In this document: positions 2,765-38,520 of the stretch, piece after piece | Layout of the letters: the number at the start of each line of letters is the position of its first letter | Numbering within the stretch: the stretch's first letter is position 1 | Sequence record: NC_047885.1 | From: Escherichia phage chee24 | DNA: 64,000 bases | Reading direction: 5' to 3' (one strand) | The notes under the pieces: generated by a model | What the model was told of the DNA's origin: nothing | Databases searched by the model: none | What the model saw: only the letters and a program-made list of their open reading frames with translations | Translations under genes and position numbers: made by a program

Positions 2765-2942
2765 ATTTATCTTGTTTTTCGAGATCTTCAAATTCTAAAT
2801 CATTGAAGTTCCCTAGAGTACGGGAGTAGAACCCGTCTCCTACGTCATAGCCTGATTTACCACAATCACACATTTTAAACTCTCTATAACGAGTGAAAAT
2901 ATGTTCAGAACCACAACACTTAAATTTAACTAACATTTTCAT
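2751..2942 (-). CDS. small Cys-rich protein (63 aa), possible zinc ribbon
   Basis: ORF with CC..H and CDC motifs. Confidence 0.45.
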   Translation of the reverse strand: MKMLVKFKCCGSEHIFTRYREFKMCDCGKSGYDVGDGFYSRTLGNFNDLEFEDLEKQDKSTVG

Positions 2943-3181
2943 TTAACACGCTCCGGTAAATCTTCGAGTTTATATTGGGTAGCCACATTAGCAGCATCTA
3001 GTAACAAACCCATATGTTTAAGAATCCTGGTGATAGCCTCGCCTTCTGCTTCTTCTACAAAGCAACGTAGATTAACGAAGTCAATACCACCATCCATACC
3101 AGAGAAAATGTTTAGTAAGCGAAACATTACCAGCTTACGTTCTTTCAATTCTTGTTCTGTCATGTTGCTTCTCCAGTTCAA
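2939..3181 (-). CDS. hypothetical protein (80 aa)
   Basis: ORF start overlaps the stop of the upstream ORF (coupled pair). Confidence 0.5.
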   Translation of the reverse strand: MNWRSNMTEQELKERKLVMFRLLNIFSGMDGGIDFVNLRCFVEEAEGEAITRILKHMGLLLDAANVATQYKLEDLPERVK

Positions 3182-3213
3182 TTTATGTAATTATTATATA
3201 GAACTTTTGGAAA

Positions 3214-3501
3214 CTAAGCAACTACATTTTTTAGGAATTTGATCCCTTTCTTTTTCTTCTTATATTTCCACGTTAATGGATTCTGTCGATTATGAACGCT
3301 TGAGATCTTTGTCTCGTCAAAGTTCTTCAATATCATGTAATCACAGGATAATTGTTCTAGTGGAATGTGATCACCGTCAAAAGCGTATACATAAGGCTGT
3401 TGACTAGCACGATAATGATAGACTTTGTTAATTCTACGTTTCAGCGACTTATCCGCGCAGTAAATAAAGAAGTTTTCAGGATGCATCAGCATCTCCTTCA
3501 A
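3214..3501 (-). CDS. hypothetical protein (95 aa)
   Basis: ORF in the minus-strand series. Confidence 0.5.
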   Translation of the reverse strand: MKEMLMHPENFFIYCADKSLKRRINKVYHYRASQQPYVYAFDGDHIPLEQLSCDYMILKNFDETKISSVHNRQNPLTWKYKKKKKGIKFLKNVVA

Positions 3502-3503
3502 TT

Positions 3504-3578
3504 TGGTGCACCCTGTTCGTATCGAACGAACCTCTCAAGCTCTTCAGGCAAGCGCTAATCCATCTCAGCTAAAGGTGC
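3504..3578 (-). tRNA. tRNA, probably Phe (anticodon GAA), CCA encoded
   Basis: Acceptor GCACCTT/AGGGTGC, D-arm GCTG..TAGC, perfect T-arm GTTCG-TTCGATA-CGAAC; anticodon stem has two U-U mismatches. Confidence 0.5.
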
Positions 3579-3584
3579 AAATTT

Positions 3585-3665
3585 TGGCAAACCCACTAGG
3601 ACTCGAACCTAGACCGTACGGTTTTGGAGACCGACATGCTGTCCAGTAACACTCTAGGAATGCAG
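3585..3665 (-). ncRNA. tRNA-like element with Trp-like anticodon loop (CTCCAAA) but no acceptor-stem pairing
   Basis: T-arm CTAGG-TTCGAGT-CCTAG and 3' CCA present; no complementary 5' strand found within tRNA distance. Confidence 0.3.
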
Positions 3666-3669
3666 AAAT

Positions 3670-3763
3670 TGGTACACCCACGGAGAATTGAACTCCGATT
3701 CTCAGATTGAACTCCGATTCTCAGATTGAAATCCTGATGTCCTAGCCATTAGACGATAGGTGT
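3670..3763 (-). tRNA. tRNA-Glu-like gene (anticodon UUC) with a 19-bp tandem duplication at the variable-loop position
   Basis: Removing one repeat copy gives a 75-nt cloverleaf (acceptor ACACCTA/TGGGTGT, D-arm GTCT-AATGGCTA-GGAC, anticodon stem TCAGG/TCTGA, T-arm CGGAG-TTCAATT-CTCCG); as encoded it is 94 nt. Confidence 0.45.
3687..3730. repeat. perfect 19-bp tandem duplication (ATTGAACTCCGATTCTCAG x2) plus a 6-bp partial third copy
   Basis: Exact copies at 3687-3705 and 3706-3724. Confidence 0.85.
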
Positions 3764-3771
3764 ATTAAATT

Positions 3772-3859
3772 TGGTGGGCGTTAATGGAGTCGAACCACTC
3801 GAGTCGCAATGACCAGGGATTTACAATCCCCTCCGCTACCACTTACGGAATAAACGCCC
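3772..3859 (-). tRNA. tRNA-Tyr (anticodon GUA), long variable arm, CCA encoded
   Basis: Acceptor GGGCGTT/AACGCCC, anticodon stem GGGGA/TCCCT with loop TTGTAAA, 88-nt length with extra arm. Confidence 0.6.
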
Positions 3860-3987
3860 ATATTTAGAAGCATTCAAATACTTGTTTAAACACTTTTAAA
3901 TATGTTTCCGAATTAGATAACTATTATACCAAGTTTTAAGGCACTGAGCAAGTCAAATTTTAAAGAACTTGCTCAGTGCTGTATTAG

Positions 3988-4263
3988 TTAGTCGAACTTA
4001 GGAGTGATAGTTAAGGAGAACGGAAGTTCGAAAACTTCTTCGCCCTCATTACTAACGGTAACTACACGACCTTTAAGTTCAGACATTAAAATATCAATAT
4101 CAGCTTTTGCATCTGGAGCCATGCCAGCTTCAATACATTTAGCTTTAACTTCCGGTAAAAGCTCTACGTTATAGAGATAGAGCCACTCAATCTCACCTTC
4201 CCAGTCTTCCCAGGATTTGCAGATTGCACTTTCAATACCAGTTGCTACAACACGATTTTGCAT
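3988..4263 (-). CDS. hypothetical protein (91 aa)
   Basis: ORF with promoter-like TTGCCT-18-TATAAT (minus sense) at about 4290-4345 upstream. Confidence 0.55.
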   Translation of the reverse strand: MQNRVVATGIESAICKSWEDWEGEIEWLYLYNVELLPEVKAKCIEAGMAPDAKADIDILMSELKGRVVTVSNEGEEVFELPFSLTITPKFD

Positions 4264-4353
4264 TAATTAACTCCTTCATCAATTTATATAACTATTATAC
4301 CAGAAATTTAAAGTAAAAGGCAAGTACATTTTTAAAAATTCTGTTTGGAGGAG

Positions 4354-4560
4354 CTAAACTCCAGATTTTTCGGCCAAGTCTAGACTAATAAGAGTTATAG
4401 CCATAATTGCTGCACCGTGTTCTTTTTCTCCGGTGTTTTTAGCAGAGTCTATAATATCCTTAATCTGTTCGTAATAACTTTTTACTTCTTGTTCAATGCC
4501 TGCCTCGGCTATCATGCCTTTAGCCATGAATCGTTGCATGGTAATTTCAGGATTAGCCAT
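4354..4560 (-). CDS. hypothetical protein (68 aa)
   Basis: ORF; start overlaps the stop of the 4553-4720 ORF. Confidence 0.5.
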   Translation of the reverse strand: MANPEITMQRFMAKGMIAEAGIEQEVKSYYEQIKDIIDSAKNTGEKEHGAAIMAITLISLDLAEKSGV

Positions 4561-4720
4561 GTTGTTTCTCCAGTTTCATTTTTAATAGTTTACAGATGAA
4601 ATCAACGTCTTCATCTGTGCCTAAGTCTCTATCCTCAAGGGTCGCCTTGAAGTTTTTCGTCAATTCCATGAGGATGACTTCCCTAGAACGACGTGTTGGC
4701 GGAGGTGGATGTCTATACAT
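4553..4720 (-). CDS. small hypothetical protein (55 aa)
   Basis: Unlisted ORF below the track cutoff, coupled to the downstream gene. Confidence 0.35.
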   Translation of the reverse strand: MYRHPPPPTRRSREVILMELTKNFKATLEDRDLGTDEDVDFICKLLKMKLEKQHG

Positions 4721-4735
4721 CTTATTTCCTTAATT

Positions 4736-4812
4736 TGGTAGGGGTGGTGGGATTCGAACCCACAAAACCTGAATTTTAAGTCCAGTACCTATGCCAATTC
4801 GATTACACCCCC
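4736..4812 (-). tRNA. tRNA with anticodon UAA (Leu-like, but short variable loop)
   Basis: Acceptor GGGGGTG/CACCCCT, T-arm GTGGG-TTCGAAT-CCCAC, anticodon stem CTGGA/TTCAG with loop CTTAAAA. Confidence 0.5.
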
Positions 4813-5107
4813 ATGTAATCAGTTTATTAGTTGATACATATTATAGCCTAAAGAAAACCCTACTACTAATCCTACGAACCAACCAATATAATAATCTTTT
4901 AATTTCACGGGTGTCAACCTCGTTCAATATCTAGAGAAATACCACAGGTAGGATTAATGCCTGTGCCTTTGCACGTCGGACAAACCCAGATATTACAGAA
5001 TGTATCCCCTGCTTCTGCATCAGAACTTTTCCAACTCCTAGACAGTTAGGACAGGCACATTCTTCTAGCTCTTGCTTGAGTTCTTGAAACTTAGACATAT
5101 AGTTTCC

Positions 5108-5296
5108 TTATTCAATTACTTTTGAGGCTTCAAGGGAGTCGATATAGTGTACGTTTTCTACCATGATCATATAATCTGCCACTTTATCCATAGCCTGAGC
5201 TTCAGAGGTAGCCCTGGCTAACCTATATCCTTTTTTATATTCATCCGGGTATTCCCTATCTGGAATAAACACAACACAAACTAGGTATAGTTCCAC
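5108..5296 (-). CDS. hypothetical protein (62 aa)
   Basis: ORF in the minus-strand series. Confidence 0.4.
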   Translation of the reverse strand: MELYLVCVVFIPDREYPDEYKKGYRLARATSEAQAMDKVADYMIMVENVHYIDSLEASKVIE

Positions 5297-5317
5297 TTGT
5301 AACCTCTCTAATCAAGA

Positions 5318-5395
5318 TGGTGGCTCCCCGAGGATTCGAACCTACGTACCTTCCGGTTATGAGCCGGATGCTCATACCATATGAGCTTGAGAACC
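5318..5395 (-). tRNA. tRNA-Met or Ile2 (anticodon CAU), CCA encoded
   Basis: Acceptor GGTTCTC/GGGAGCC, anticodon stem TCCGG/CCGGA with loop CTCATAA; T-stem imperfect. Confidence 0.55.
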
Positions 5396-5401
5396 AGAAT
5401 T

Positions 5402-5490
5402 TGGCGGAAGAAGTGGGAATCGAACCCACAAGGCTATATTTCAAACCGACAGATTAGCAATCTGCTGCAATACCGTTATGCTATTCTTCC
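5402..5490 (-). tRNA. tRNA-Ser (anticodon GCU), long variable arm, CCA encoded
   Basis: Acceptor GGAAGAA/TTCTTCC, anticodon stem GCAGA/TCTGT with loop TTGCTAA, T-arm GTGGG-TTCGATT-CCCAC, 89 nt. Confidence 0.6.
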
Positions 5491-5505
5491 GAATTTATAA
5501 GATAT

Positions 5506-5534
5506 ATTATATTAGAAATTTAGCTTCATAGCAA
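5506..5534 (-). promoter_or_regulatory. sigma70-like early promoter (minus sense TTGCTA-17-TATAAT) upstream of tRNA-Ser
   Basis: Plus-strand ATTATA 5506-5511 and TAGCAA 5529-5534; same conserved promoter family. Confidence 0.55.
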
Positions 5535-6030
5535 GAAAATTTTTCAAGTTTTCGGTAGACATCTCATCCACATCTACAGGAGAAACAAATCCATTTAATT
5601 GTCTAGCAAATTTTTCACCAGCAGGATCATTATCCCCAACAGCTACCAATTTAAAAGGTAGTAATTTCAATTGCTTTAACAACGCTTTTCCTGGAGAAGA
5701 ACCCAACATTGCCAGGGCTGGATAACCAGCGTTATGTAATGCTACGGCCTTAAATACAGATTCCGCAACCAATACTACTTTTTCATCCCCATTGAGAGTT
5801 TCCAGCCCCCATACACACTGTGTAGTAGAATAAGTAAAATACTTAGCTTCAAAAGGAGATTTACCATGACCTTTTGGAGCAGAAGGATTATAAGTCTGAT
5901 AGCCTCTCAACATCCCAGAGAAGTCATACAATGGGACTGTTAGCCATCCTTCCGGACTTAACCAGCAATGATATTTATCTGTATCAAACCCTCTAGATAA
6001 GAGATGTTCTGTTAGTTCATCAACAGTCAT
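5512..6030 (-). CDS. TOPRIM-domain protein, primase-like paralog lacking a zinc finger (172 aa)
   Basis: VVLVAESVFKAVAL and VAVGDNDPAG motifs (Glu plus DxD) align with the TOPRIM region of the primase at 37630-38520. Confidence 0.55.
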   Translation of the reverse strand: MTVDELTEHLLSRGFDTDKYHCWLSPEGWLTVPLYDFSGMLRGYQTYNPSAPKGHGKSPFEAKYFTYSTTQCVWGLETLNGDEKVVLVAESVFKAVALHNAGYPALAMLGSSPGKALLKQLKLLPFKLVAVGDNDPAGEKFARQLNGFVSPVDVDEMSTENLKNFLAMKLNF

Positions 6031-6058
6031 ATTAGATTCCTCTCAAATTTATAAATAT

Positions 6059-6087
6059 ATTATACAGAGGATTTAGCATTCAAGCAA
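6059..6087 (-). promoter_or_regulatory. sigma70-like early promoter (minus sense TTGCTT-17-TATAAT) for 5512-6030
   Basis: Plus-strand ATTATA 6059-6064 and AAGCAA 6082-6087. Confidence 0.55.
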
Positions 6088-6165
6088 TTGAATTTTTTAA
6101 CTTTTTAGAGGAAAATCACAGGATGCTTACGGGTAGCAGGTAAGTGGTCAGGACCGAAATTTGTG

Positions 6166-6195
6166 ACCCCACTAAAAATCTGGGGTCAATTTTTA
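6166..6195 (+). terminator. rho-independent terminator-like hairpin at the 5' edge of the plus-strand cassette
   Basis: Stem GACCCCA/TGGGGTC with 9-nt loop, followed by AATTTTTA. Confidence 0.5.
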
Positions 6196-6203
6196 AAGAC
6201 CCC

Positions 6204-6232
6204 TTGACATTTTTGCCGGGGTAGTGTAAAGT
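6204..6232 (+). promoter_or_regulatory. sigma70-like promoter (TTGACA-17-TAAAGT) for the plus-strand cassette
   Basis: Consensus -35 at 6204-6209, 17-bp spacer, -10 TAAAGT 6227-6232, AGGAGG RBS at 6280. Confidence 0.6.
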
Positions 6233-6295
6233 ATATGTTATGGATGAGTGATCAAAGAGACACACATTTTCTATATACTAGGAGGTGTCAAAAAA

Positions 6296-7275
6296 TGACA
6301 GAAGAAGTAGCTAAGAGTCCTGAAACCGTCGCTAGCGTAGCAGCAGAACTGCATCGTCACGAGGAATCAGATAAGAAAAAGTGGGAGAAAGTCAAAGCCT
6401 ACGAAGAAGAACATCGTGAACACGATGATAAAGATGAAGAAGATGACGATGATGAACATTGTCATAAATATGGAAAACATAAAATGCAAGAACCAGTAAA
6501 CGTATTTACTAATGGCTTCCCTGGCATGGGTGCATTCCCAGCTAACGCAAGTGCTTTCGGTGGAGAAGGTATGGGTCTATTCGGAGCTATCCTAATCGGT
6601 GCTCTATTAACAGGCGGATTTGGTGGTTTTGGTGGTTTTGGCCGTGGTGCTGGCGTTGCCGCTGAAGGGACTGCTGTGGACGCGATCCTTTCTAACCAAG
6701 ATACTGCAAGTATTCTAGCTGCAATCAATACTACTCGTACAGAAGCTAACCAGGGCACTGGGGCTGTTCTAAGCGCAGTAAACGGTGTGGGAGCTGCTCA
6801 AGCTGCTAGCACTCAGCAAGTTCTGACTACTATCTACGGTACAGGTGCTAATCTGTCAAACCAGATCTGTGCTGAAACTCGTAACGTTATTCAGGGTCAG
6901 TTCGATCTTTCTCGTCAGATGGATCAATCTTTCGCTGCTAACCAGATCGCACGTGCTCAAGATAAGTTTGACTCTGCTCAGATTGCTTTCCAGCAGTCTA
7001 TTCAGACCAATAACCAGTTTGCCGCTGTTCAGGCTCAGATGTGTGCTAACCAGAATGCTATAGAGCGTCAGCTTGCTGAATGTTGCTGTGAACTTCAGAC
7101 TGCGATCGCTGGTGTAACTACTGCGCGTATCCAGGACGAACTGAATGAATGCCGTCTGCGTGAAGCAATCGCTCAAGGTAGTGGTGCTAACGGTCAGGTA
7201 ATTAACCAAATCGCTGTAAGTCTTGGTGCTATCACTCAGACTCTGGCTGGTCTGCAGGCTAAACTGCCGGCTTAA
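6296..7275 (+). CDS. hypothetical protein (326 aa): acidic N-terminus, Gly-rich hydrophobic segment, Gln/Ala-rich C-terminal half
   Basis: Track ORF 6235-7275 trimmed to the ATG at 6296 behind AGGAGG; segment GMGLFGAILIGALLTGGFGGFGGFG looks like a glycine-zipper membrane helix; codons look more GC-rich than neighbours. Confidence 0.6.
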
Positions 7276-7296
7276 AATTAAGGGGAGGAGCCCATT

Positions 7297-7713
7297 ATGA
7301 GTAAATATGGTTTTGTAAACAACGGATTTAATCAACAAATGGGCTCCCAGCAGCCCGTTCCGGGTCTGGATAATCCTTACCTACAACAGTTGCAACAGCG
7401 TTTAGCAGAAGCGCAACAGATGCAGCAACAACTCCAGCAAAACCCTGGAAGTGTGAGTCCTATGCAAATGATGCAGCAAATGAGCGGGCAGTCGCAAATG
7501 CCTCAACAAATGCAGCAACAGGTGCCTCAGCAGCAAGTTCAGCAACAAACCCAACAACCGCAGGTTTCTGCGGAAGGACAGGCAGTACTAGCTCTTTTCG
7601 AAGATTTCGCAAAGACAGAGGATGGGAAACAGCTTGTATCACTTATGGGTAAGTTTAATAGCTTCTGCCAAAGCCAGGTTGCAAAAGCTCAAAATGGTGA
7701 TAATAACTCCTAA
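7297..7713 (+). CDS. Gln-rich low-complexity protein (138 aa)
   Basis: ATG behind GGGGAGGAG RBS; long QQ(M/L)QQ tracts. Confidence 0.55.
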   Translation: MSKYGFVNNGFNQQMGSQQPVPGLDNPYLQQLQQRLAEAQQMQQQLQQNPGSVSPMQMMQQMSGQSQMPQQMQQQVPQQQVQQQTQQPQVSAEGQAVLALFEDFAKTEDGKQLVSLMGKFNSFCQSQVAKAQNGDNNS

Positions 7714-7722
7714 GGAGGAATT

Positions 7723-7917
7723 ATGTGTTGCAGAAAATCTGTTTCGTGCTGCCCAATGCCTGTAGCACGTTGTTGCTCTCCAGCAATGTTTACACAAATA
7801 CCGGCGTTCAATCCCTTTGCCTTTAAGCCTACTCTTATCCTGCCCCCTAGAGTAGATTTTCAGTCAAGATTGGCCTCCCGTATGGGTGGTTGCTGTAACA
7901 AGAGTATATGGTTCTAA
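7723..7917 (+). CDS. small Cys-rich protein (64 aa) with four Cys-Cys doublets
   Basis: ATG behind AAGGAGG RBS; sequence MCCRKSVSCC..RCCS..GGCCNK. Confidence 0.5.
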   Translation: MCCRKSVSCCPMPVARCCSPAMFTQIPAFNPFAFKPTLILPPRVDFQSRLASRMGGCCNKSIWF

Positions 7918-7933
7918 AGAACCAATAATAAAA

Positions 7934-7966
7934 AGCCCCTAGTCGAAAGACTTAGGGGCTTTTCTC
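7934..7966 (+). terminator. rho-independent terminator ending the plus-strand cassette
   Basis: Stem AGCCCCTAGTC / GACTTAGGGGCT with GAAA loop, followed by TTTTCTC. Confidence 0.7.
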
Positions 7967-7975
7967 TTATCTTAA

Positions 7976-8014
7976 ATACAGAAAAGCCCTGCGCTCTCCA
8001 GGGAACGCAGGGCT
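7976..8014 (-). terminator. rho-independent terminator downstream of the SPFH gene
   Basis: Stem AGCCCTGCG/CGCAGGGCT; minus-sense T-tract from plus AGAAAA. Confidence 0.6.
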
Positions 8015-8038
8015 TACTTCGAATATTACGTGTGGGTA

Positions 8039-8986
8039 TTACTTGTTACGCATATCCATAATCATCTGGCCATCATAACCAGTGCCAACCACAGTCTGCG
8101 GTACACCACCTTGATACTTCTGAGCACGAATCATTTCAACTTCTAGTTGCTTCCAGCGAATCATCTCAGGAGTAATGGTACGTTGCAGAGCAGCGTTAGC
8201 TTCAGCTTCTTTCTTAGCTGCATACAGTTTAGCATCTGCATCACGTTCGTTTGCAATAGCTTGGTTGTTACGAGCTTCACGATCTGCTTCTGCTTGTTTA
8301 ACCTTCTGCTGTGCTTCTTGTTCAACGCGAGCTAATTCAGCTTTCGCAGCATTAACTTGTTCTTCGCGAACTTTGGTATTCTGTACCTGTTCCATAATTA
8401 CCGGTGGCAATGTAATATCCTGAAGGAACACTTGCTTAACTGTGTAACCATAGGGGCGTGCATACTCTTCAACTTCCTGTTGAATTGCAGTTTGCAATTG
8501 TGCTTGAATTTTAGCATCAAACAAATCTTGTGCTTTAGGTACAGACTTACCAAACTCACGAATAGTAGACAGTAATTTTTCAGTTACATACTTATCTAGA
8601 GCCTGATCTTGAGTACCCGCATTAATACGGTTGATCGGTGCCTTAGAACCATCAAACTGCAACATAACAGTCAGGTCAACAGTGGATTTAAACTTATCCT
8701 GGCTAGGAACCTGAAGTTTATCTAATTTTACAGCAATATCTTTTGTACTAAAAGTATCGAAAGATGCAAATGGGTTTACAAGATGGAAACCAGGTAATAC
8801 TGGGTTAGGATCTACTTTACCTAGAAATGTTTGGGTTTTAACCGTACCATCAGAAACAATAGTATATGAATTAAAAGCTAGGATTAAACCTGCTAAACCA
8901 ACTACAGCACCAATACTCCAACGTTTAATAGTGCGAATTACTTTTTGCTCAGAAGTCAGTTCTTTCATATTTTTAGTATTAGACAT
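8039..8986 (-). CDS. SPFH/band-7 (prohibitin/HflC-like) membrane protein (315 aa)
   Basis: N-terminal membrane anchor (WSIGAVVGLAGLILAF), SPFH-like core, long Ala/Glu/Gln-rich coiled-coil C-terminus. Confidence 0.65.
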   Translation of the reverse strand: MSNTKNMKELTSEQKVIRTIKRWSIGAVVGLAGLILAFNSYTIVSDGTVKTQTFLGKVDPNPVLPGFHLVNPFASFDTFSTKDIAVKLDKLQVPSQDKFKSTVDLTVMLQFDGSKAPINRINAGTQDQALDKYVTEKLLSTIREFGKSVPKAQDLFDAKIQAQLQTAIQQEVEEYARPYGYTVKQVFLQDITLPPVIMEQVQNTKVREEQVNAAKAELARVEQEAQQKVKQAEADREARNNQAIANERDADAKLYAAKKEAEANAALQRTITPEMIRWKQLEVEMIRAQKYQGGVPQTVVGTGYDGQMIMDMRNK

Positions 8987-9020
8987 ATATTTCCTTTGTT
9001 TTAGTTACAGTTAATAAAAT

Positions 9021-9095
9021 TGGCCGAGGTGACAGGATTCGAACCTGCATAAAGGAATTTAGAAGACTCCTGCCTCTCCCTTAGACTACACCCCG
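9021..9095 (-). tRNA. tRNA-Arg (anticodon UCU), CCA encoded
   Basis: Acceptor CGGGGTG/CACCTCG, anticodon stem GGAGT/ATTCC with loop CTTCTAA, T-arm GCAGG-TTCGAAT-CCTGT. Confidence 0.6.
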
Positions 9096-9597
9096 TTTAA
9101 GTATTTTTAAGAACTCTCGTAAAAACTCTTAAAAATACAGACGATACCGGGAGAGTCATAAGTCTCACTCATTAAGTATTTCAAGACAAAATACAGTAAC
9201 GTCTATTATTTTCCAGTTTAAGTCAAGGTGACTTAGTGGTTATGTCCTGCGGTATACTGAGGACTAGGTTAGGTTAGGGTCATGACTCCCCACCTTTTTG
9301 CTGCTACTCAACAGGAGTTATCGCGAATTACCTGTGCTATTGTGCACCATTAGTGGCATCTCTCATGCCAGCATTTCCCACTTTGTGGATAGTTTGAAAA
9401 ACTACTCCGATATGGAGAAAGAACTTCACTATCCTAGAATACCTTCTAAAGTTCTTCTTTAGCCTGGACATAGTTAAATCGTAATAAAACTATTCAGCAG
9501 ACTGGTTGGTTAGTCTGGAACCAACTACCGCGTGGTTTAGGCAGTGCGCAACTAACCTCGGAAGCTTTTACATTAAAAGCACCAGTTATCCAGTTCT

Positions 9598-9670
9598 TAC
9601 CGACCGTAGGATTCGAACCTACATCTTCCACCAGTTACGGCTTGATAATACCGTTTTATACTAGATCGGC
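9598..9670 (-). ncRNA. tRNA-like element (canonical acceptor stem and T-arm, irregular core)
   Basis: Acceptor GCCGATC/GGTCGGT and T-arm GTAGG-TTCGAAT-CCTAC; no standard anticodon arm identified. Confidence 0.3.
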
Positions 9671-9893
9671 AGTGTTACTACATAAGTGATTTCCACACCC
9701 CACTATCAGTAAATTAGAGAAGAGTTTAGGGGAGAGGTTTCAGACGCCCCATTTTACACGTTCTAGCCACTAACCGGGATTGCCGCCCCCTGTGTACTAG
9801 TTTTCCAACTAACCCACCGACTCTATTCAATGCGCTCCGGTTGGGATTCTGCACTCAGCGTAATCGGCTCGCTGTTCTCTAATTTATGAATAT

Positions 9894-9922
9894 ATTATAC
9901 AGAATTTATAAGCATTTAGCAA
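9894..9922 (-). promoter_or_regulatory. sigma70-like early promoter (minus sense TTGCTA-17-TATAAT)
   Basis: Plus-strand ATTATA 9894-9899 and TAGCAA 9917-9922; points into the 9100-9700 region, tRNA-Arg and the SPFH gene. Confidence 0.55.
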
Positions 9923-9930
9923 ATAAATTT

Positions 9931-10374
9931 TTAATTAAATTCGCCAGCAATCTGAGCAGCAGTACCACCATCATAACGCCCAGGAAATTCTTCCTTAATC
10001 GCTTTCATCAGCATACCTTTTGTAATTCCAGGGTTTAGCTTAACTAATTCTGCAAAGTATTTACGAATCTCAGTATCAGATAACTGAGGAGGCAGATACT
10101 CCTGCAACCACTTATTTAGAATGTATTCATACTGAGTGGACTGCAAGCTATAACTATCAAGATCTTGACCATGAAGTTTAGCTTTCATCTGGTTAATGCT
10201 TTTTAGTTGAGCTTTGAGATAAGACACAAATTGTTCAGAAGTGATGAAATCTTTATCAATACGCTGAAGATCCCCGATTATGGTCTGATAGCTTTTAGCG
10301 ACTTCTTTATCAGAACCATTAAACTTAGAATCCTGCAAAGCTCTACGCAAAACATCTAAAATATTCTCTTCCAT
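9931..10374 (-). CDS. GatB/YqeY-domain protein (147 aa)
   Basis: C-terminal YLPPQLSDTEI...GRYDGGTAAQIA resembles the YqeY family signature. Confidence 0.55.
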   Translation of the reverse strand: MEENILDVLRRALQDSKFNGSDKEVAKSYQTIIGDLQRIDKDFITSEQFVSYLKAQLKSINQMKAKLHGQDLDSYSLQSTQYEYILNKWLQEYLPPQLSDTEIRKYFAELVKLNPGITKGMLMKAIKEEFPGRYDGGTAAQIAGEFN

Positions 10375-36160: not shown

Positions 36161-37633
36161 ATGACCTTGTTTAACGTGCAAGCTGTAGTGTTGAAGATGC
36201 TTCTAGCTTCCGAACAGAAGCAAATAGCATTGGAAACATTCTCAAAACTGCATAAAGATCATTTTAATGACGCTTTCTCCTCAATTTACCAAGCCGTCCA
36301 GAATTATTATAAAAAATATAACACAATGCCGTCCATTGACGCACTGATGCTTGAGGCTAATAGGAACGCCCGCCTTTCTCAAGCTCTAGTCGTTTTAGCT
36401 AACACTCAAATTCCAGAAGTTAGCATGGAACAGGCACTTGAAGTCCTAGAAGCCGAGTATACACAGGATTTATTCCTGAAGCTTCTAGAAACAGACGTGC
36501 TTCAAGATTTAACAATGCTGGATCAGGGAGAAATTCTTAACCGAGTTGCCTCCCTTCACTTAAAATTAGAAGAGAAAGTAACGAATACTGGAAAAGTATT
36601 CAACGCAGATAACATGCGTATTTTCCAGAGAGAAGAAGATACCAAACTGAACTTAATCGCTCTTGGTATTTGTAATGAGTTCGACGCTCAAATTGGTTTA
36701 GCTCGCACAGAAACGTTACTGCTTGGTGGTTGGCGTGGTACTGGTAAATCCATTATCTGTTCAAACATACAGGTTCAGCAATATTTGAATGGAGATATTG
36801 CTCCATACTTCTCAATTGAGATGAAAGAACATGAAGTATTTAGACGTAATCTAGCTATGTTAGCTGGTGTATCAGCACTAGCAATGCGTAATAATACTCT
36901 AGAAGGTGCAGCTCTGTTGAGATTAGCCAGAACTAGAGCTAGGATGTTTAACGGTGGTGAAGAGCTTTTCGATAACTTCGTTAAACAGTACACAATGGCT
37001 AAGATGAGTGATTTCTACGATATGGAAAGTAAGCTAATAGAAGGGTATGAATTACATACTCCTATGATTATTGTTTATGATCCTGAGCTGTCTATTACAA
37101 CAGTTGACGTAGAATTAAATAAATTAGTTGCTAGATATGGGGATAAAGTTACAGTAGCTTTACTGGACTATATTAACCAAACCCGACTTCCAGATTCTAA
37201 AACCATTGATATGTATGACTGGAAAGAACAGATGGTTGTTAGCTCGTCTTTCAAATCTATCTGCCAGAAACATAACGTGGCTGGTGTAGCTCCTTACCAG
37301 ATTGATCAAGATGGTAGAACACGTATGTCAAAGGGGATTCTTGATTCCGCAGACATGGCTGCTAATCTTAATGCTGCAAAAGCGGATAATGGTCAAGGTG
37401 CTATTATGTTTGACTTCGTTAAGACTCGTTCTTCTGATAGCGTGAAGTTTATGCCTAAAATGAACTGGGAAACCCTGCGGATGGATAACACTACCAACCT
37501 AGCAATGGAAGATATATCTCAAATGGAAGCTGAGTTCGTTATCCCTATTGAGAAGGATAAGCCGGCTCAATCTAAACGTGCTAAGAAAGACAAAGCTGAA
37601 AATTCAACAGGTGAACAGGCCAGCGATATATGA
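36161..37633 (+). CDS. DnaB-family replicative helicase-like protein
   Basis: Walker A GWRGTGKS and SIEM (DnaB SLEM-like) motif; start moved to the ATG behind AAAGGAGA, past the terminator. Confidence 0.65.
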   Translation: MTLFNVQAVVLKMLLASEQKQIALETFSKLHKDHFNDAFSSIYQAVQNYYKKYNTMPSIDALMLEANRNARLSQALVVLANTQIPEVSMEQALEVLEAEYTQDLFLKLLETDVLQDLTMLDQGEILNRVASLHLKLEEKVTNTGKVFNADNMRIFQREEDTKLNLIALGICNEFDAQIGLARTETLLLGGWRGTGKSIICSNIQVQQYLNGDIAPYFSIEMKEHEVFRRNLAMLAGVSALAMRNNTLEGAALLRLARTRARMFNGGEELFDNFVKQYTMAKMSDFYDMESKLIEGYELHTPMIIVYDPELSITTVDVELNKLVARYGDKVTVALLDYINQTRLPDSKTIDMYDWKEQMVVSSSFKSICQKHNVAGVAPYQIDQDGRTRMSKGILDSADMAANLNAAKADNGQGAIMFDFVKTRSSDSVKFMPKMNWETLRMDNTTNLAMEDISQMEAEFVIPIEKDKPAQSKRAKKDKAENSTGEQASDI

Positions 37634-38520
37634 GTAGAATAACAGAACTACTTGATCTGAAAGGCATTGAATATAAAGACACAGGTGGGGACATCCTCAT
37701 CTGTTGTCTCAATCCAGATCATGATGATAAACACCCAAGTTTGCGTATTGACCCTGAAACAGGTATTATGCACTGCTTGAGTTGTGGCTTCGGTAAAGGT
37801 ATACCGAGCATTTACCATTATTTTAATGAGACTCAGTACCGACAGTCCCCAAGGCTATCGCAAGTACGTAAAAAGATTTCAGAGATTAGGAATGGATCAA
37901 CGAATCTTGCAATTCCTGAATCTGCTTGCCTTTTCGAAGGTGATTTCCGAGGTATAAGTTCTAAGACCTTGAAGAAATATTTTGCTTTCCAACACCAAGC
38001 AGACTGGGAAGGCAGAATTGTATTCCCAATCACAGATGCTGTTGGACGCAATATCCTATTTTTGGGTCGTTCTATAAACAGTTCTGCCCCTCCTAAATAC
38101 TTAGTAAAACCAAAACAAGTTTCACCACCAATTTTTCCTGTACGATATAATACTCCAGTTCTTATTCTAGTTGAAGGCATCTTTGATATGCTGAACCTAG
38201 AGGATAATGGTATAGACTATACTTCTTGCTGCTTTGGTACACATCAGTTTACTTCGGATAACATTGCAGATAAGTTCAGTCCTTATATTATTGCCGGTGT
38301 AAAAGTTGTTGTTATCTTACTAGATAATGATGCTTCTGGTAGTAAAGCTGCACAAGCATTGGCCAAGCTAATTCGTACAAAAACGCGTTTAACACCTGTA
38401 GTTGCTAACTTTCTTCTGCCTGAAGGTAAAGACCCTGGTGACTTAAATAAAGAAGAGATTGATATGTTAGCAAAACGTATTGAAATTTTAGTTGCTGAAT
38501 CGCTTAAAGATTTGGTATAA
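37630..38520 (+). CDS. DNA primase (zinc-binding domain plus TOPRIM)
   Basis: CLNPDHDDKHPS...HCLSCG zinc motif; TOPRIM LVEGIFDML...LLDNDASG; ATGA coupling. Confidence 0.75.
   Translation: MSRITELLDLKGIEYKDTGGDILICCLNPDHDDKHPSLRIDPETGIMHCLSCGFGKGIPSIYHYFNETQYRQSPRLSQVRKKISEIRNGSTNLAIPESACLFEGDFRGISSKTLKKYFAFQHQADWEGRIVFPITDAVGRNILFLGRSINSSAPPKYLVKPKQVSPPIFPVRYNTPVLILVEGIFDMLNLEDNGIDYTSCCFGTHQFTSDNIADKFSPYIIAGVKVVVILLDNDASGSKAAQALAKLIRTKTRLTPVVANFLLPEGKDPGDLNKEEIDMLAKRIEILVAESLKDLV

What the first reader, a model, noticed from the sequence alone, without database searches (positions are those of the whole stretch)
7723..7917. 64-aa protein with four Cys-Cys doublets behind a near-perfect RBS
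The sequence MCCRKSVSCC...ARCCS...GGCCNK has four vicinal cysteine pairs in a Pro-rich background. Vicinal Cys pairs are uncommon in cytoplasmic phage proteins and suggest metal binding, palmitoylation-like anchoring or a redox-active peptide.
Basis: seen in the sequence. Interest (0 to 1): 0.5.

Follow-up and report, generated by a model that had tools for sequence, protein, structure and literature searches.

The report
Conserved cysteine-doublet small phage protein
The 64-residue reading frame is a real, conserved small protein (T5.079 of phage T5), the third gene of a dispensable three-gene set in which every protein keeps a fixed cysteine motif; the set occurs in several unrelated phage groups, and its function is unknown.

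Summary
Window 7723-7917 (+) encodes a 64-aa protein with 8 Cys, all in four CC doublets, behind AAGGAGG. The window is a T5-like phage and the ORF is identical to T5.079 (hypothetical protein); most relatives leave it unannotated.

It is under purifying selection. Among T5-like phages dN/dS is 0.38 in frame and about 1 out of frame, and all Cys are invariant. In deep pairs synonymous sites are near saturation (pS 0.62-1.0) while pN is 0.29-0.43.

It is the last gene of the early operon T5.077-T5.078-T5.079, which ends at a terminator. About half of T5-like phages have lost this cassette as a block, and the viable T5 st0 mutant lacks it.

Following distant T5.077 relatives found the same three-gene order in divergent T5-like, N4-like, lambdoid and Pseudomonas KPP23/RSP phages. 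There the third gene is always a 49-91 aa basic, Pro/aromatic-rich protein starting MCC, MCGC or MSCNC, with further CC doublets. T5.077 relatives keep an invariant CCC, and T5.078 relatives keep one invariant Cys.

No Pfam, NCBIfam, PADLOC or PDB family matches, and no paper mentions these genes. The best reading is a cysteine-dependent partner of a membrane-associated complex. The chemistry (metal-thiolate or disulfide) and the biological role are inferred, not shown.

The parts
6204..6232 (+). Sigma-70-like promoter of the cassette (TTGACA-17-TAAAGT). It corresponds to early promoter P12 in the phage T5 annotation.
   Evidence: Consensus scan. T5 RefSeq annotates promoter P12 just upstream of T5.077.
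6295..7275 (+). Gene A, the T5.077 homologue (326 aa, phrog_8119). It has a charged Asp/Glu/His-rich N-terminal part and a Gly-rich hydrophobic segment at residues 94-112 (GLFGAILIGALLTGGFGGF). A long predicted helix follows, carrying the invariant CCC (residues 263-265, nt 7081-7089).
7297..7713 (+). Gene B, the T5.078 homologue (138 aa, phrog_7894). It has a Gln-rich N-terminal part and a conserved C-terminal domain with the invariant Cys124 (KFNSFCQ, nt 7666-7668).
7712..7718 (+). Shine-Dalgarno AAGGAGG for the small gene. It overlaps the stop codon of gene B.
   Evidence: Equivalent SD sequences stand before every positional relative.
7723..7917 (+). Gene C, the finding: T5.079, a 64-aa basic (pI 9.3) protein rich in Pro and aromatic residues, with four CC doublets.
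7931..7972 (+). Rho-independent terminator ending the operon: hairpin at 7931-7963, followed by a T-rich tail.
   Evidence: Fold -21.3 kcal/mol, z -4.6. T5 annotates it as an 'efficient bidirectional terminator'.
7984..8015 (-). Second hairpin, the terminator of the convergent SPFH gene T5.080 (8039..8986, - strand). It contains the GCGC site where T5 annotates a major single-strand nick. It marks the boundary of the cassette and is not part of it.

Best explanation
The ORF is a translated small protein, T5.079. It is the third component of an accessory, early-expressed three-gene cassette: promoter P12, then T5.077, T5.078, T5.079, then a terminator.

Gene A (T5.077) is a rod-like, mostly helical protein with a Gly-rich hydrophobic segment that probably attaches it to the inner membrane. 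It has an invariant CCC triplet in the middle of its long helix. Gene B (T5.078) is a Gln-rich protein with one invariant Cys. Gene C is a basic, Pro/aromatic-rich protein that is predicted to be disordered on its own. Its only deeply conserved features are an N-terminal Cys cluster (MCC, MCGC or MSCNC) and further CC doublets.

The mechanism I commit to is inferred, not shown. The thiols of C bridge to the CCC of A and the Cys of B. They do so most likely through shared soft-metal/thiolate sites on the cytoplasmic face of the membrane, or otherwise through disulfides. This locks a membrane-associated complex that changes the infected cell's envelope in a way that helps the phage only under some conditions, for example exclusion of other phages or evasion of a host defence.

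Sub-claims: C is a real protein-coding gene, about 0.9. C works together with A and B, about 0.75. The cysteines are the functional residues, about 0.8. The chemistry is metal-thiolate rather than disulfide, about 0.35 against 0.25. The biological role is unknown.
For: Identity: the window is 100% identical to T5-like phage pork27 and 96.8% to T5. The ORF equals T5.079 / YP_006907.1.

Coding among T5-likes: the intact frame is present in 219 phage records at 86-100% amino-acid identity. Across 15 distinct T5-like alleles dN/dS is 0.38 in frame, against 0.96 and 1.04 in the other two frames. All 8 Cys are invariant, and three Cys codons show synonymous TGC/TGT changes.

Coding in deep relatives: nine further positional relatives were found only by following distant T5.077 homologues (35-45% identity). 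All have an SD upstream and start between -46 and +9 nt from the stop of gene B. All begin with Met-Cys (or Met-Ser-Cys), have pI 8.9-9.8, carry 0-1 acidic residues, and are 49-91 aa long. T5 and L051 share CCPMPV[AP]RCC and a C-terminal GGCC. In deep pairs pS is 0.62-1.0 and pN is 0.29-0.43.

Linkage: A is found in 221 phage records and C in 220. The cassette is lost as a block in phiR2-01, chee130_1 and AKFV33, leaving a scar. In SESL, loss of A and B leaves C out of frame.

Cysteine theme: CCC is invariant across 21 A homologues down to 25% identity. One Cys is invariant in B.

Fusion hint: in 9 of the 12 distinct more distant A relatives examined, mostly phrog_16490 proteins from phages and MAGs assigned mostly to gut Clostridia, a Pro/aromatic plus Cys/Gly-rich tail (GCGC, CC) is fused to the A protein itself. 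Some C proteins start MCGCGC.

Localisation: neither B nor C has a signal peptide. Short-tailed A homologues have acidic N-tails with almost no K/R, which weakly favours a cytoplasmic C-terminal domain.

Accessory status: the region is absent around the deletion junction of the viable T5 st0 mutant. In lambdoid contigs the cassette sits on the opposite strand beside the lysis genes; in L050 it lies between the antiterminator Q and the lysis genes. In KPP23 it sits at the head of the early arm.
Against: There is no direct evidence of translation; no proteomics or ribosome-profiling data were found.

The codon-usage score of the ORF is intermediate: -0.09, against 0.39 +/- 0.16 for true frames and -0.77 +/- 0.31 for wrong frames. 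One reverse frame scores slightly higher.

AlphaFold2 gives no confident structure for C (pLDDT 47) or A (pLDDT 49), so no binding site can be seen.

The hydrophobic segment of A is only marginally hydrophobic in some homologues (mean Kyte-Doolittle hydropathy (KD) 0.9-1.3), and its topology is unresolved. If the rod is periplasmic, A's CCC and the cytoplasmic C could not meet.

The resemblance between C and the tails of the distant A relatives is compositional, not an alignment.

The Cys content (12.5%) is well below that of classical metallothioneins.

Nothing links the cassette to any phenotype.
Confidence: 0.45

Rival explanations
1. A disulfide-hardened structural assembly. A is a coiled-coil rod with Gly-rich loops. 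C is a small CC-rich cross-linker and B is a Gln-rich filler, analogous to keratin plus high-sulfur keratin-associated proteins, or to Cys-rich spore-coat layers. Cross-linking would occur in an oxidising compartment (the periplasm) or after lysis.
For: CC followed by P or S/T (CCPMP, CCSPA, CCRKS, CCNKS) resembles keratin-associated-protein pentads; this comparison is from memory and is an analogy only. A is predicted as one long helix, residues 173-322, after a Gly/Phe-rich segment. The best, non-significant, PDB profile hits are coiled-coil rods, with vimentin's Cys aligned to the CCC. The relatives from gut Clostridia carry GCGC-type tails and sit next to BclA_C-like proteins.
Against: B and C have no signal peptide, so they should stay in the reducing cytoplasm. 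The cassette is transcribed from an early promoter, not with the structural genes. Flanking charges weakly favour a cytoplasmic rod. KPP23 labels a nearby gene 'virion protein' but not these three.
Confidence: 0.2
2. A free-standing metallothionein-like or redox-buffer peptide. It would bind Cu, Zn, Cd or As, or scavenge oxidants, independently of T5.077 and T5.078.
For: Vicinal Cys pairs bind soft metals and metalloids in ArsD, MerT and Cox17 (established knowledge). T5-like A proteins carry His/Asp/Glu-rich stretches such as HHYHHHHHEHY, which suggests a metal theme in the locus.
Against: C is never found without A and B: 220 against 221 records, and the same order in all 10 diverse loci. 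C decays when A and B are deleted. Its Cys content is 12.5% and it has 7 aromatic residues, unlike metallothioneins. There is no hit to any metallothionein model.
Confidence: 0.1
3. A precursor of a modified peptide (thiazole-, thioether- or lanthionine-type RiPP), or a lipid-anchored peptide using the N-terminal Cys.
For: N-terminal Cys and Cys-Gly clusters (MCC, MCGCGC) resemble the cores of some RiPP precursors (memory). The N-terminal Cys is conserved in all but one member.
Against: No YcaO, radical-SAM, LanB/C/M or other enzyme domain occurs in or next to the cassette in any of the phage backgrounds. A and B are low-complexity helical proteins with no Pfam or NCBIfam hit. There is no signal peptide or lipobox, so the Lgt/Lsp/Lnt pathway cannot act.
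Confidence: 0.05
4. The frame is not translated. It survives because the DNA serves as the 3' untranslated region and terminator region of the operon.
For: Codon usage is not gene-like. Most GenBank records do not call the ORF. One T5 record (AY587007) and pork27 omit it.
Against: dN/dS is 0.38 only in this frame. Synonymous sites are near saturation or saturated (pS 0.62-1.0) while protein motifs persist in deep pairs. An SD plus ATG-TGY start recurs right after gene B in phages whose DNA is no longer alignable. No Rfam family lies in the region.
Confidence: 0.05

Closest known systems
T5.079 (YP_006907.1), hypothetical protein of Escherichia phage T5. Its neighbours are T5.077 (phrog_8119) and T5.078 (phrog_7894).
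   Same: T5.079 is 100% identical at the amino-acid level. The operon, promoter P12 and bidirectional terminator are the same. A and B match their PHROGs at E 1.6e-197 and 1.8e-80.
   Different: Nothing differs; it is the same gene. No function, family or paper is attached to it, and PHROGs has no family for it.
Vicinal-cysteine metal(loid) binders: ArsD metallochaperone, MerT and the MerA C-terminus, Cox17, metallothioneins
   Same: They use several CC doublets as the functional element, and they are small proteins (established knowledge).
   Different: There is no sequence similarity. The Cys content is lower, and the protein is rich in Pro and aromatic residues and strongly basic. It is always encoded with two partner proteins that carry their own Cys motifs.
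Two-component spanins (lambda Rz/Rz1)
   Same: Both pair a phage membrane protein that has a helical rod and conserved Cys with a very small Pro-rich, Cys-containing protein encoded alongside it.
   Different: Rz1 is an outer-membrane lipoprotein with a lipobox, whereas C has no signal peptide. Rz has its transmembrane helix at the extreme N-terminus, whereas A has 93 charged residues first. The lambdoid contigs carrying the cassette already encode an Rz-family protein (PF03245), and KPP23 has its own listed spanins (PMC6139136). The cassette is early or divergent, not part of the lysis cassette.
Granulin/epithelin module
   Same: It has four CC doublets a few residues apart, and it is the only Pfam model that registers at all.
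   Different: The score is 10.3 bits (E 0.83) against a cut-off of 20.9 bits. The 12-Cys pattern is absent, and granulins are secreted eukaryotic domains.
phrog_16490 proteins of phages and MAGs assigned mostly to gut Clostridia
   Same: These distant relatives of gene A have a Gly-rich hydrophobic segment and the QLA[ED]CCC motif. They carry a Pro/aromatic plus Cys-rich tail that resembles C in composition.
   Different: The Cys-rich part is fused to A rather than encoded separately. Their neighbours differ (BclA_C-like phrog_20016, phrog_28802, DUF7841), and all are of unknown function.

Membership tests
T5.079 orthologue group (T5-like phages) | Full-length similarity to YP_006907.1 at the same genomic position | tested here: met
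   100% amino-acid identity to T5 (AY543070), BF23 and others. The ORF lies between T5.078 and the bidirectional terminator.
Cys-motif three-gene cassette (defined here) | Order A (Gly-rich hydrophobic segment plus invariant CCC), B (Gln-rich, invariant KF..CQ Cys), C (small basic protein starting with a Cys cluster, with at least one further CC). All three lie on one strand and are closely spaced. | tested here: met
   This holds in the window and in L022, L029, L030, L031, L049, L050, L051, L068 and L069.
Metallothionein-like proteins | Very high Cys content in CxC/CC/CxxC clusters, few aromatic residues, and a match to a metallothionein model | tested here: not met
   It has 8 of 64 residues Cys (12.5%) and 7 aromatic residues. 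No metallothionein family appears in the Pfam or NCBIfam scans.
Metallothionein-like proteins | Stoichiometric metal binding | not testable with these tools
   This needs ICP-MS or a titration on purified peptide or complex.
Granulin (PF00396) | Score above the gathering threshold and the 12-Cys pattern | tested here: not met
   The score is 10.3 bits against a cut-off of 20.9, with E 0.83 (best 0.45 among 9 members).
o-spanin (Rz1-like) or bacterial lipoprotein | N-terminal signal peptide ending in a lipobox Cys | tested here: not met
   The sequence starts MCCRKSVSCC, with no hydrophobic signal region and no [LVI][ASTVI][GAS]C box.
i-spanin (Rz-like), for gene A | N-terminal transmembrane helix, a match to an Rz family model, and location in the lysis cassette | tested here: not met
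   The hydrophobic segment starts at residue 94 and there is no Pfam hit. The carrier phages have separate PF03245 genes.
RiPP precursor peptide | An adjacent modifying enzyme (YcaO, radical SAM, Lan, etc.) | tested here: not met
   No enzyme domain occurs in the cassette or is conserved next to it across the different phage backgrounds.
Known anti-phage defence or anti-defence proteins (PADLOC models) | A match to a PADLOC model | tested here: not met
   There are no hits for A, B, C or three C relatives at E up to 1.
Class I viral fusion protein (HA2-like), for gene A | Significant profile or fold similarity | tested here: inconclusive
   A shares the GLFGAI hexapeptide and a coiled-coil composition, but the profile E-value against HA2 is 0.19. 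The AF2 model is too poor for a fold search.

The most novel reading that the evidence does not exclude
The cassette is a previously unrecognised kind of phage accessory system. It would be a membrane-tethered coiled-coil rod (CCC), zipped through cysteine clusters to a tiny basic CC-doublet protein and a Gln-rich partner. It would be shared by phages of Gram-negative hosts (T5-like, N4-like, lambdoid, Pseudomonas) and, in fused form, by phages of gut Clostridia. It would carry out a thiol- or metal-dependent remodelling of the infected cell envelope, for example exclusion of competing phages or neutralisation of a membrane-based defence.
Probability: 0.25. Interest if true: 0.75.

Novelty: categorically new. 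Interest (0 to 1): 0.55.

Why it matters
Small phage proteins are systematically missed by gene callers. In most of the 60 T5-like records sampled from the 220 hits, this ORF has no annotation.

The ORF belongs to a three-protein set held together by an unusual common theme: CCC in one protein, a single Cys in the second, and CC doublets in the third. The set has moved between at least four unrelated groups of phages of Gram-negative hosts and has a fused cousin in phages from gut Clostridia.

The cassette is dispensable in the laboratory and is often lost in nature. That profile fits genes that matter only in particular hosts or in competition, the class that includes anti-defence and exclusion genes.

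If the cysteines bind metal or form regulated disulfides, this would be a rare case of thiol chemistry at the centre of a phage-host interaction. T5 and BF23 are tractable models, and the viable T5 st0 mutant already lacks the region.

Tried and rejected
Sequence searches for C found almost nothing.
- The 5.8-billion-protein word-index search found only its own 90% cluster.
- The exhaustive HMMER search of 1.84 billion representatives found that cluster plus two repeat-protein artefacts.
- A profile of nine diverse members added only two members already known from synteny.

Library scans gave no usable hit. This covers Pfam, PHROGs, NCBIfam, PADLOC and PDB sequence searches for C, and all of these except PHROGs for A and B.

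AlphaFold2 on A (21-sequence alignment) and on C (4 sequences) gave pLDDT 49 and 47. Fold searches were therefore not run, because they would be meaningless.

Other searches added little.
- Megablast of the lambdoid version against complete E. coli genomes, and tblastn of its C protein against phages, found no match.
- The genome and metagenome scans added only distant relatives of the type seen in gut Clostridia and more T5-likes.
- Rfam found nothing in the ORF, only tRNAs downstream.
- Seven literature searches by locus tags, accessions and themes found nothing on these genes.

Ideas rejected:
- Lipoprotein or palmitoylation-like anchoring, because there is no signal peptide or lipobox.
- Spanin, because the features are wrong and separate spanins are present.
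- RiPP, because there is no modifying enzyme.
- Granulin, because the score is below threshold.
- An artefact of a DNA repeat. The four CC sites share only short TGYTGY-type strings, although those strings did mediate deletions in relatives.

Full report
**1. The observation**

Window 7723-7917 (+) is an ATG-initiated ORF of 64 codons encoding MCCRKSVSCCPMPVARCCSPAMFTQIPAFNPFAFKPTLILPPRVDFQSRLASRMGGCCNKSIWF.
- All eight Cys are in four doublets (residues 2-3, 9-10, 17-18, 57-58), and there are eight Pro.
- AAGGAGG lies at 7712-7718. It overlaps the stop codon of the upstream gene and ends 4 nt before the ATG.
- With this composition, the probability that all eight Cys pair up is 1.2e-4.
- No other ORF of at least 40 aa in any frame of the window has more than two CC doublets. 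The long ORFs of the window contain about 1% Cys.

The description is accurate and the pattern is not chance.

**2. What the locus is**

The window is a T5-like phage. The 2.1 kb around the ORF is 100% identical to 'T5-like pork27' and four sister isolates, and 96.8% identical to phage T5.

In the T5 RefSeq record the ORF is T5.079 (YP_006907.1, 'hypothetical protein'). It is the last gene of an early operon:
- promoter P12
- T5.077 (window 6295-7275)
- T5.078 (window 7297-7713)
- T5.079
- an 'efficient bidirectional rho-independent terminator'

The hairpin at 7931-7963 folds at -21.3 kcal/mol, z = -4.6. A second hairpin at 7984-8015 terminates the convergent SPFH-domain gene T5.080 (8039-8986, - strand; Band_7, E 2e-17) and carries the annotated T5 nick site.

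Another T5 record (AY587007) and pork27 itself do not annotate the small ORF. In a spread sample of 60 of the 220 phage records that contain it, most have no feature under the match.

**3. Is it a gene?**

A tblastn search finds the intact frame in 219 phage genomes at 86-100% identity. Across 15 distinct nucleotide alleles:
- 30 sites vary.
- dN/dS is 0.38 in the ORF frame, against 0.96 and 1.04 in the two shifted frames.
- All eight Cys are invariant, and three Cys codons show synonymous TGC/TGT changes.

Codon usage is not convincing. The per-codon score is -0.09, between true-frame chunks (0.39 +/- 0.16) and wrong-frame chunks (-0.77 +/- 0.31). This fits the odd composition and probably explains why gene callers skip the ORF.

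The stronger evidence comes from distant relatives. The small protein is a sequence orphan:
- Only its own cluster appears among 5.8 billion proteins.
- An exhaustive HMMER pass over 1.84 billion representatives adds only two repeat-protein artefacts.

T5.077, however, has homologues down to 25% identity. I looked at what lies downstream of them. Nine further loci show the same three-gene order:
- divergent T5-like contigs (L029, L030, L068, L069) and UTK0010 (L022)
- an N4-like contig with a virion RNA polymerase gene nearby (L031)
- two lambdoid contigs, where the cassette lies beside the holin/lysozyme/Rz genes on the opposite strand (L050, L051). In L050, antiterminator Q and NinG lie on its other side.
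- the Pseudomonas aeruginosa phages KPP23/RSP (L049)

In each locus the third ORF:
- has its own SD (AAGGAG, GGAGG, GGGGG)
- starts between -46 and +9 nt from the stop of the second gene
- is 49-91 aa long
- begins MCC, MCGCC, MCGCGC or MSCNCGC
- contains at least one more CC doublet (up to four)
- has pI 8.9-9.8, with zero or one acidic residue
- is rich in Pro and aromatic residues

T5 and L051 share CCPMPV[AP]RCC and a C-terminal GGCC. M1 and the central CC are invariant in the alignment. In deep pairs pS is 0.62-1.0, near or at saturation, while pN is 0.29-0.43. This is protein-level purifying selection over long divergence. I put the probability that the ORF is a real gene at about 0.9. 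Direct expression data were not found.

**4. The cassette**

The three genes travel and disappear together.
- T5.077 is found in 221 phage records and T5.079 in 220.
- Roughly half of the about 426 T5-like records with a match to this region lack the cassette.
- phiR2-01 and chee130_1 keep only a scar in which the third CC codon pair is joined to the fourth, followed by the terminator. AKFV33 keeps even less, only the second, convergent-gene hairpin and the adjacent start of T5.080's region.
- In SESL, a deletion between a shared GTGTTGCAG in codon ~14 of T5.077 and the start of T5.079 leaves the small frame out of phase. MSP1 keeps only the last 33 codons.
- The viable laboratory mutant T5 st0 lacks the region. 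Its annotated deletion junction joins sequence left of the cassette to window position ~10371.

So the cassette is accessory. Its positions fit that: an own-promoter early unit in T5, the head of the early arm in KPP23, and an opposite-strand insert beside the lysis genes in lambdoid contigs.

**5. The partners**

*T5.077 (326 aa, phrog_8119):*
- It has a charged, Asp/Glu/His-rich N-terminal 93 residues. Some relatives carry HHYHHHHHEHY there.
- The conserved EPVNVFTNG motif follows.
- A Gly-rich hydrophobic segment, GLFGAILIGALLTGGFGGF, has mean hydropathy 1.72. In some relatives this value is only 0.9-1.3.
- About 200 residues rich in Gln, Asn, Ala, Thr and Ser follow, which AlphaFold2 draws as one long helix (173-322) at low confidence (pLDDT 49).
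- In the middle of that helix a CCC triplet is invariant in all 21 aligned homologues.

*T5.078 (138 aa, phrog_7894):* it has a Gln-rich N-terminal half and a conserved C-terminal domain with one invariant Cys, in KF[NS]x[FY]CQ.

None of the three proteins hits Pfam, NCBIfam, PADLOC or any PDB sequence significantly.

More distant relatives of T5.077 were examined in 12 distinct forms. Most belong to phrog_16490. They come from 36-47 kb viral contigs and from MAGs assigned mostly to gut Clostridia/Oscillospiraceae.
- Most keep the hydrophobic Gly-rich segment, and all keep the QLA[ED]CCC motif.
- In 9 of the 12 forms the protein ends in a Pro/aromatic plus Cys/Gly-rich tail, for example ...PNPNCCYNYGNFGFNNGCGCNNGCC or ...GGCGCNCGSGYGVA.
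- That tail resembles the separate C protein in composition, and some C proteins begin MCGCGC. I read this as a hint that C works on or with A. It is a compositional resemblance, not an alignment.

**6. How it probably works**

*Shown:*
- The gene is conserved.
- It is tightly linked to A and B.
- Fixed Cys motifs are the most conserved feature of all three proteins.
- The cassette is dispensable.
- C is predicted to be disordered alone (pLDDT 47).

*Inferred:* C is a cysteine-dependent partner of A and B in a membrane-associated complex.

Two chemistries are possible:
- **Metal-thiolate.** B and C lack signal peptides. The short-tailed A homologues have acidic N-tails almost free of K/R, followed by an Arg after the hydrophobic segment. 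The simplest arrangement therefore puts all conserved Cys on the cytoplasmic side, where they would be thiolates. Shared metal-thiolate sites are then the more likely chemistry. From established knowledge, vicinal Cys pairs bind soft metals and metalloids in ArsD, MerT and Cox17.
- **Disulfide.** If the rod is periplasmic, disulfide cross-linking is more likely. This would be a keratin plus keratin-associated-protein style of assembly. A direct A-C contact would then be hard to explain.

The biological role is unknown. The accessory, early or moron-like, membrane-linked profile is that of exclusion or defence-related genes. No PADLOC model matches and no phenotype is known.

**7. Comparison with known things**

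The ORF is T5.079, so its existence is already on record. Its family, its cassette and its spread are not; no paper in the library mentions T5.077-079. The comparisons below were all considered:
- **Metallothionein:** not a member. Cys is 12.5%, aromatic residues are present, and no model hit was found.
- **Granulin:** not a member (10.3 bits against 20.9).
- **Lipoprotein or o-spanin:** not a member, because there is no lipobox.
- **RiPP precursor:** not a member, because no enzyme is present.
- **Spanins:** the resemblance (a membrane rod with Cys plus a tiny Pro-rich Cys protein) is architectural only. The carrier phages have their own Rz genes (PMC6139136).
- **HA2:** the hydrophobic segment of A starts with the influenza HA2 fusion-peptide hexamer GLFGAI. 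HA2 is the top PDB profile hit, but E = 0.19 is not significant.

**8. Verdict**

The ORF is very probably a real gene.

It cannot be assigned to any known family. It belongs to a conserved, mobile three-gene cassette defined by cysteine motifs. The function is unknown. The most likely mechanism is cysteine-mediated bridging within a membrane-associated complex.

Interest is moderate at 0.55. The cassette is an unexpected and testable piece of phage dark matter in a classic model phage, but there is no phenotype or chemistry yet.

Noticed in passing
window 6574-6630 (T5.077 residues 94-112): The Gly-rich hydrophobic segment GLFGAILIGALLTGGFGGF begins with the same hexapeptide as the influenza HA2 fusion peptide (GLFGAI). 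HA2 and vimentin coil 2B are the top PDB profile hits, but neither is significant (E 0.19 and 0.49).
   Followed up: partly
L023 (SESL) 2900-3310; L026 (phiR2-01) and L027 (chee130_1) ~2990-3150: Deletion scars of the cassette arose through short repeats. SESL joins codon ~14 of T5.077 to the start of T5.079 out of frame, via GTGTTGCAG. phiR2-01 and chee130_1 keep GCACGTTGTTGCTGCAAT, which is the third CC codon pair joined to the fourth, followed by the terminator.
   Followed up: yes
L061 (Pseudomonas phage KPP23) 6001-6197: KPP23_072 is annotated in a different frame (6003..6197, GTG start, translating to VLQSAGSAML...) from the conserved MCC... ORF. The RSP record annotates the conserved frame but names it 'alpha/beta hydrolase like protein', which the 60-aa sequence does not support.
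   Followed up: yes
window 7984-8015: The second hairpin, which terminates the convergent SPFH gene, contains the GCGC site where the T5 record marks a major single-strand interruption.
   Followed up: no
window 8039-8986 (-), 9024-9095 (-), 9598-9670 (-): The SPFH/Band-7 membrane protein T5.080 (Pfam E 2e-17) lies convergent to the cassette and is followed by tRNA genes. It lies in the same stretch (window 3001-10370) that has no match around the T5 st0 deletion junction.
   Followed up: partly
L043-L048, L054-L058, L060 (viral contigs and MAGs assigned mostly to gut Clostridia): These loci share a conserved block of unknown function: phrog_21718, then in several loci a small Gln-rich protein, then the phrog_16490 CCC protein with a Cys/Gly tail. 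Next come a BclA_C-like protein (phrog_20016), usually with one CC doublet, and then phrog_28802 or DUF7841.
   Followed up: partly
L042 1982-3751 (472 kb IMG/VR contig): Two tandem paralogues carry the AECCCELK motif but no Gly-rich hydrophobic segment. The second ends in CPPPCPPPCPPPCP.
   Followed up: no
window 37630-38520 (+): A 296-aa ORF with two CC doublets is the only other ORF in the window with more than one.
   Followed up: no
PMC13250531 (Bas33, a Tequintavirus): [quoted passage not shown] Whether it removes the cassette was not checked.
   Followed up: no
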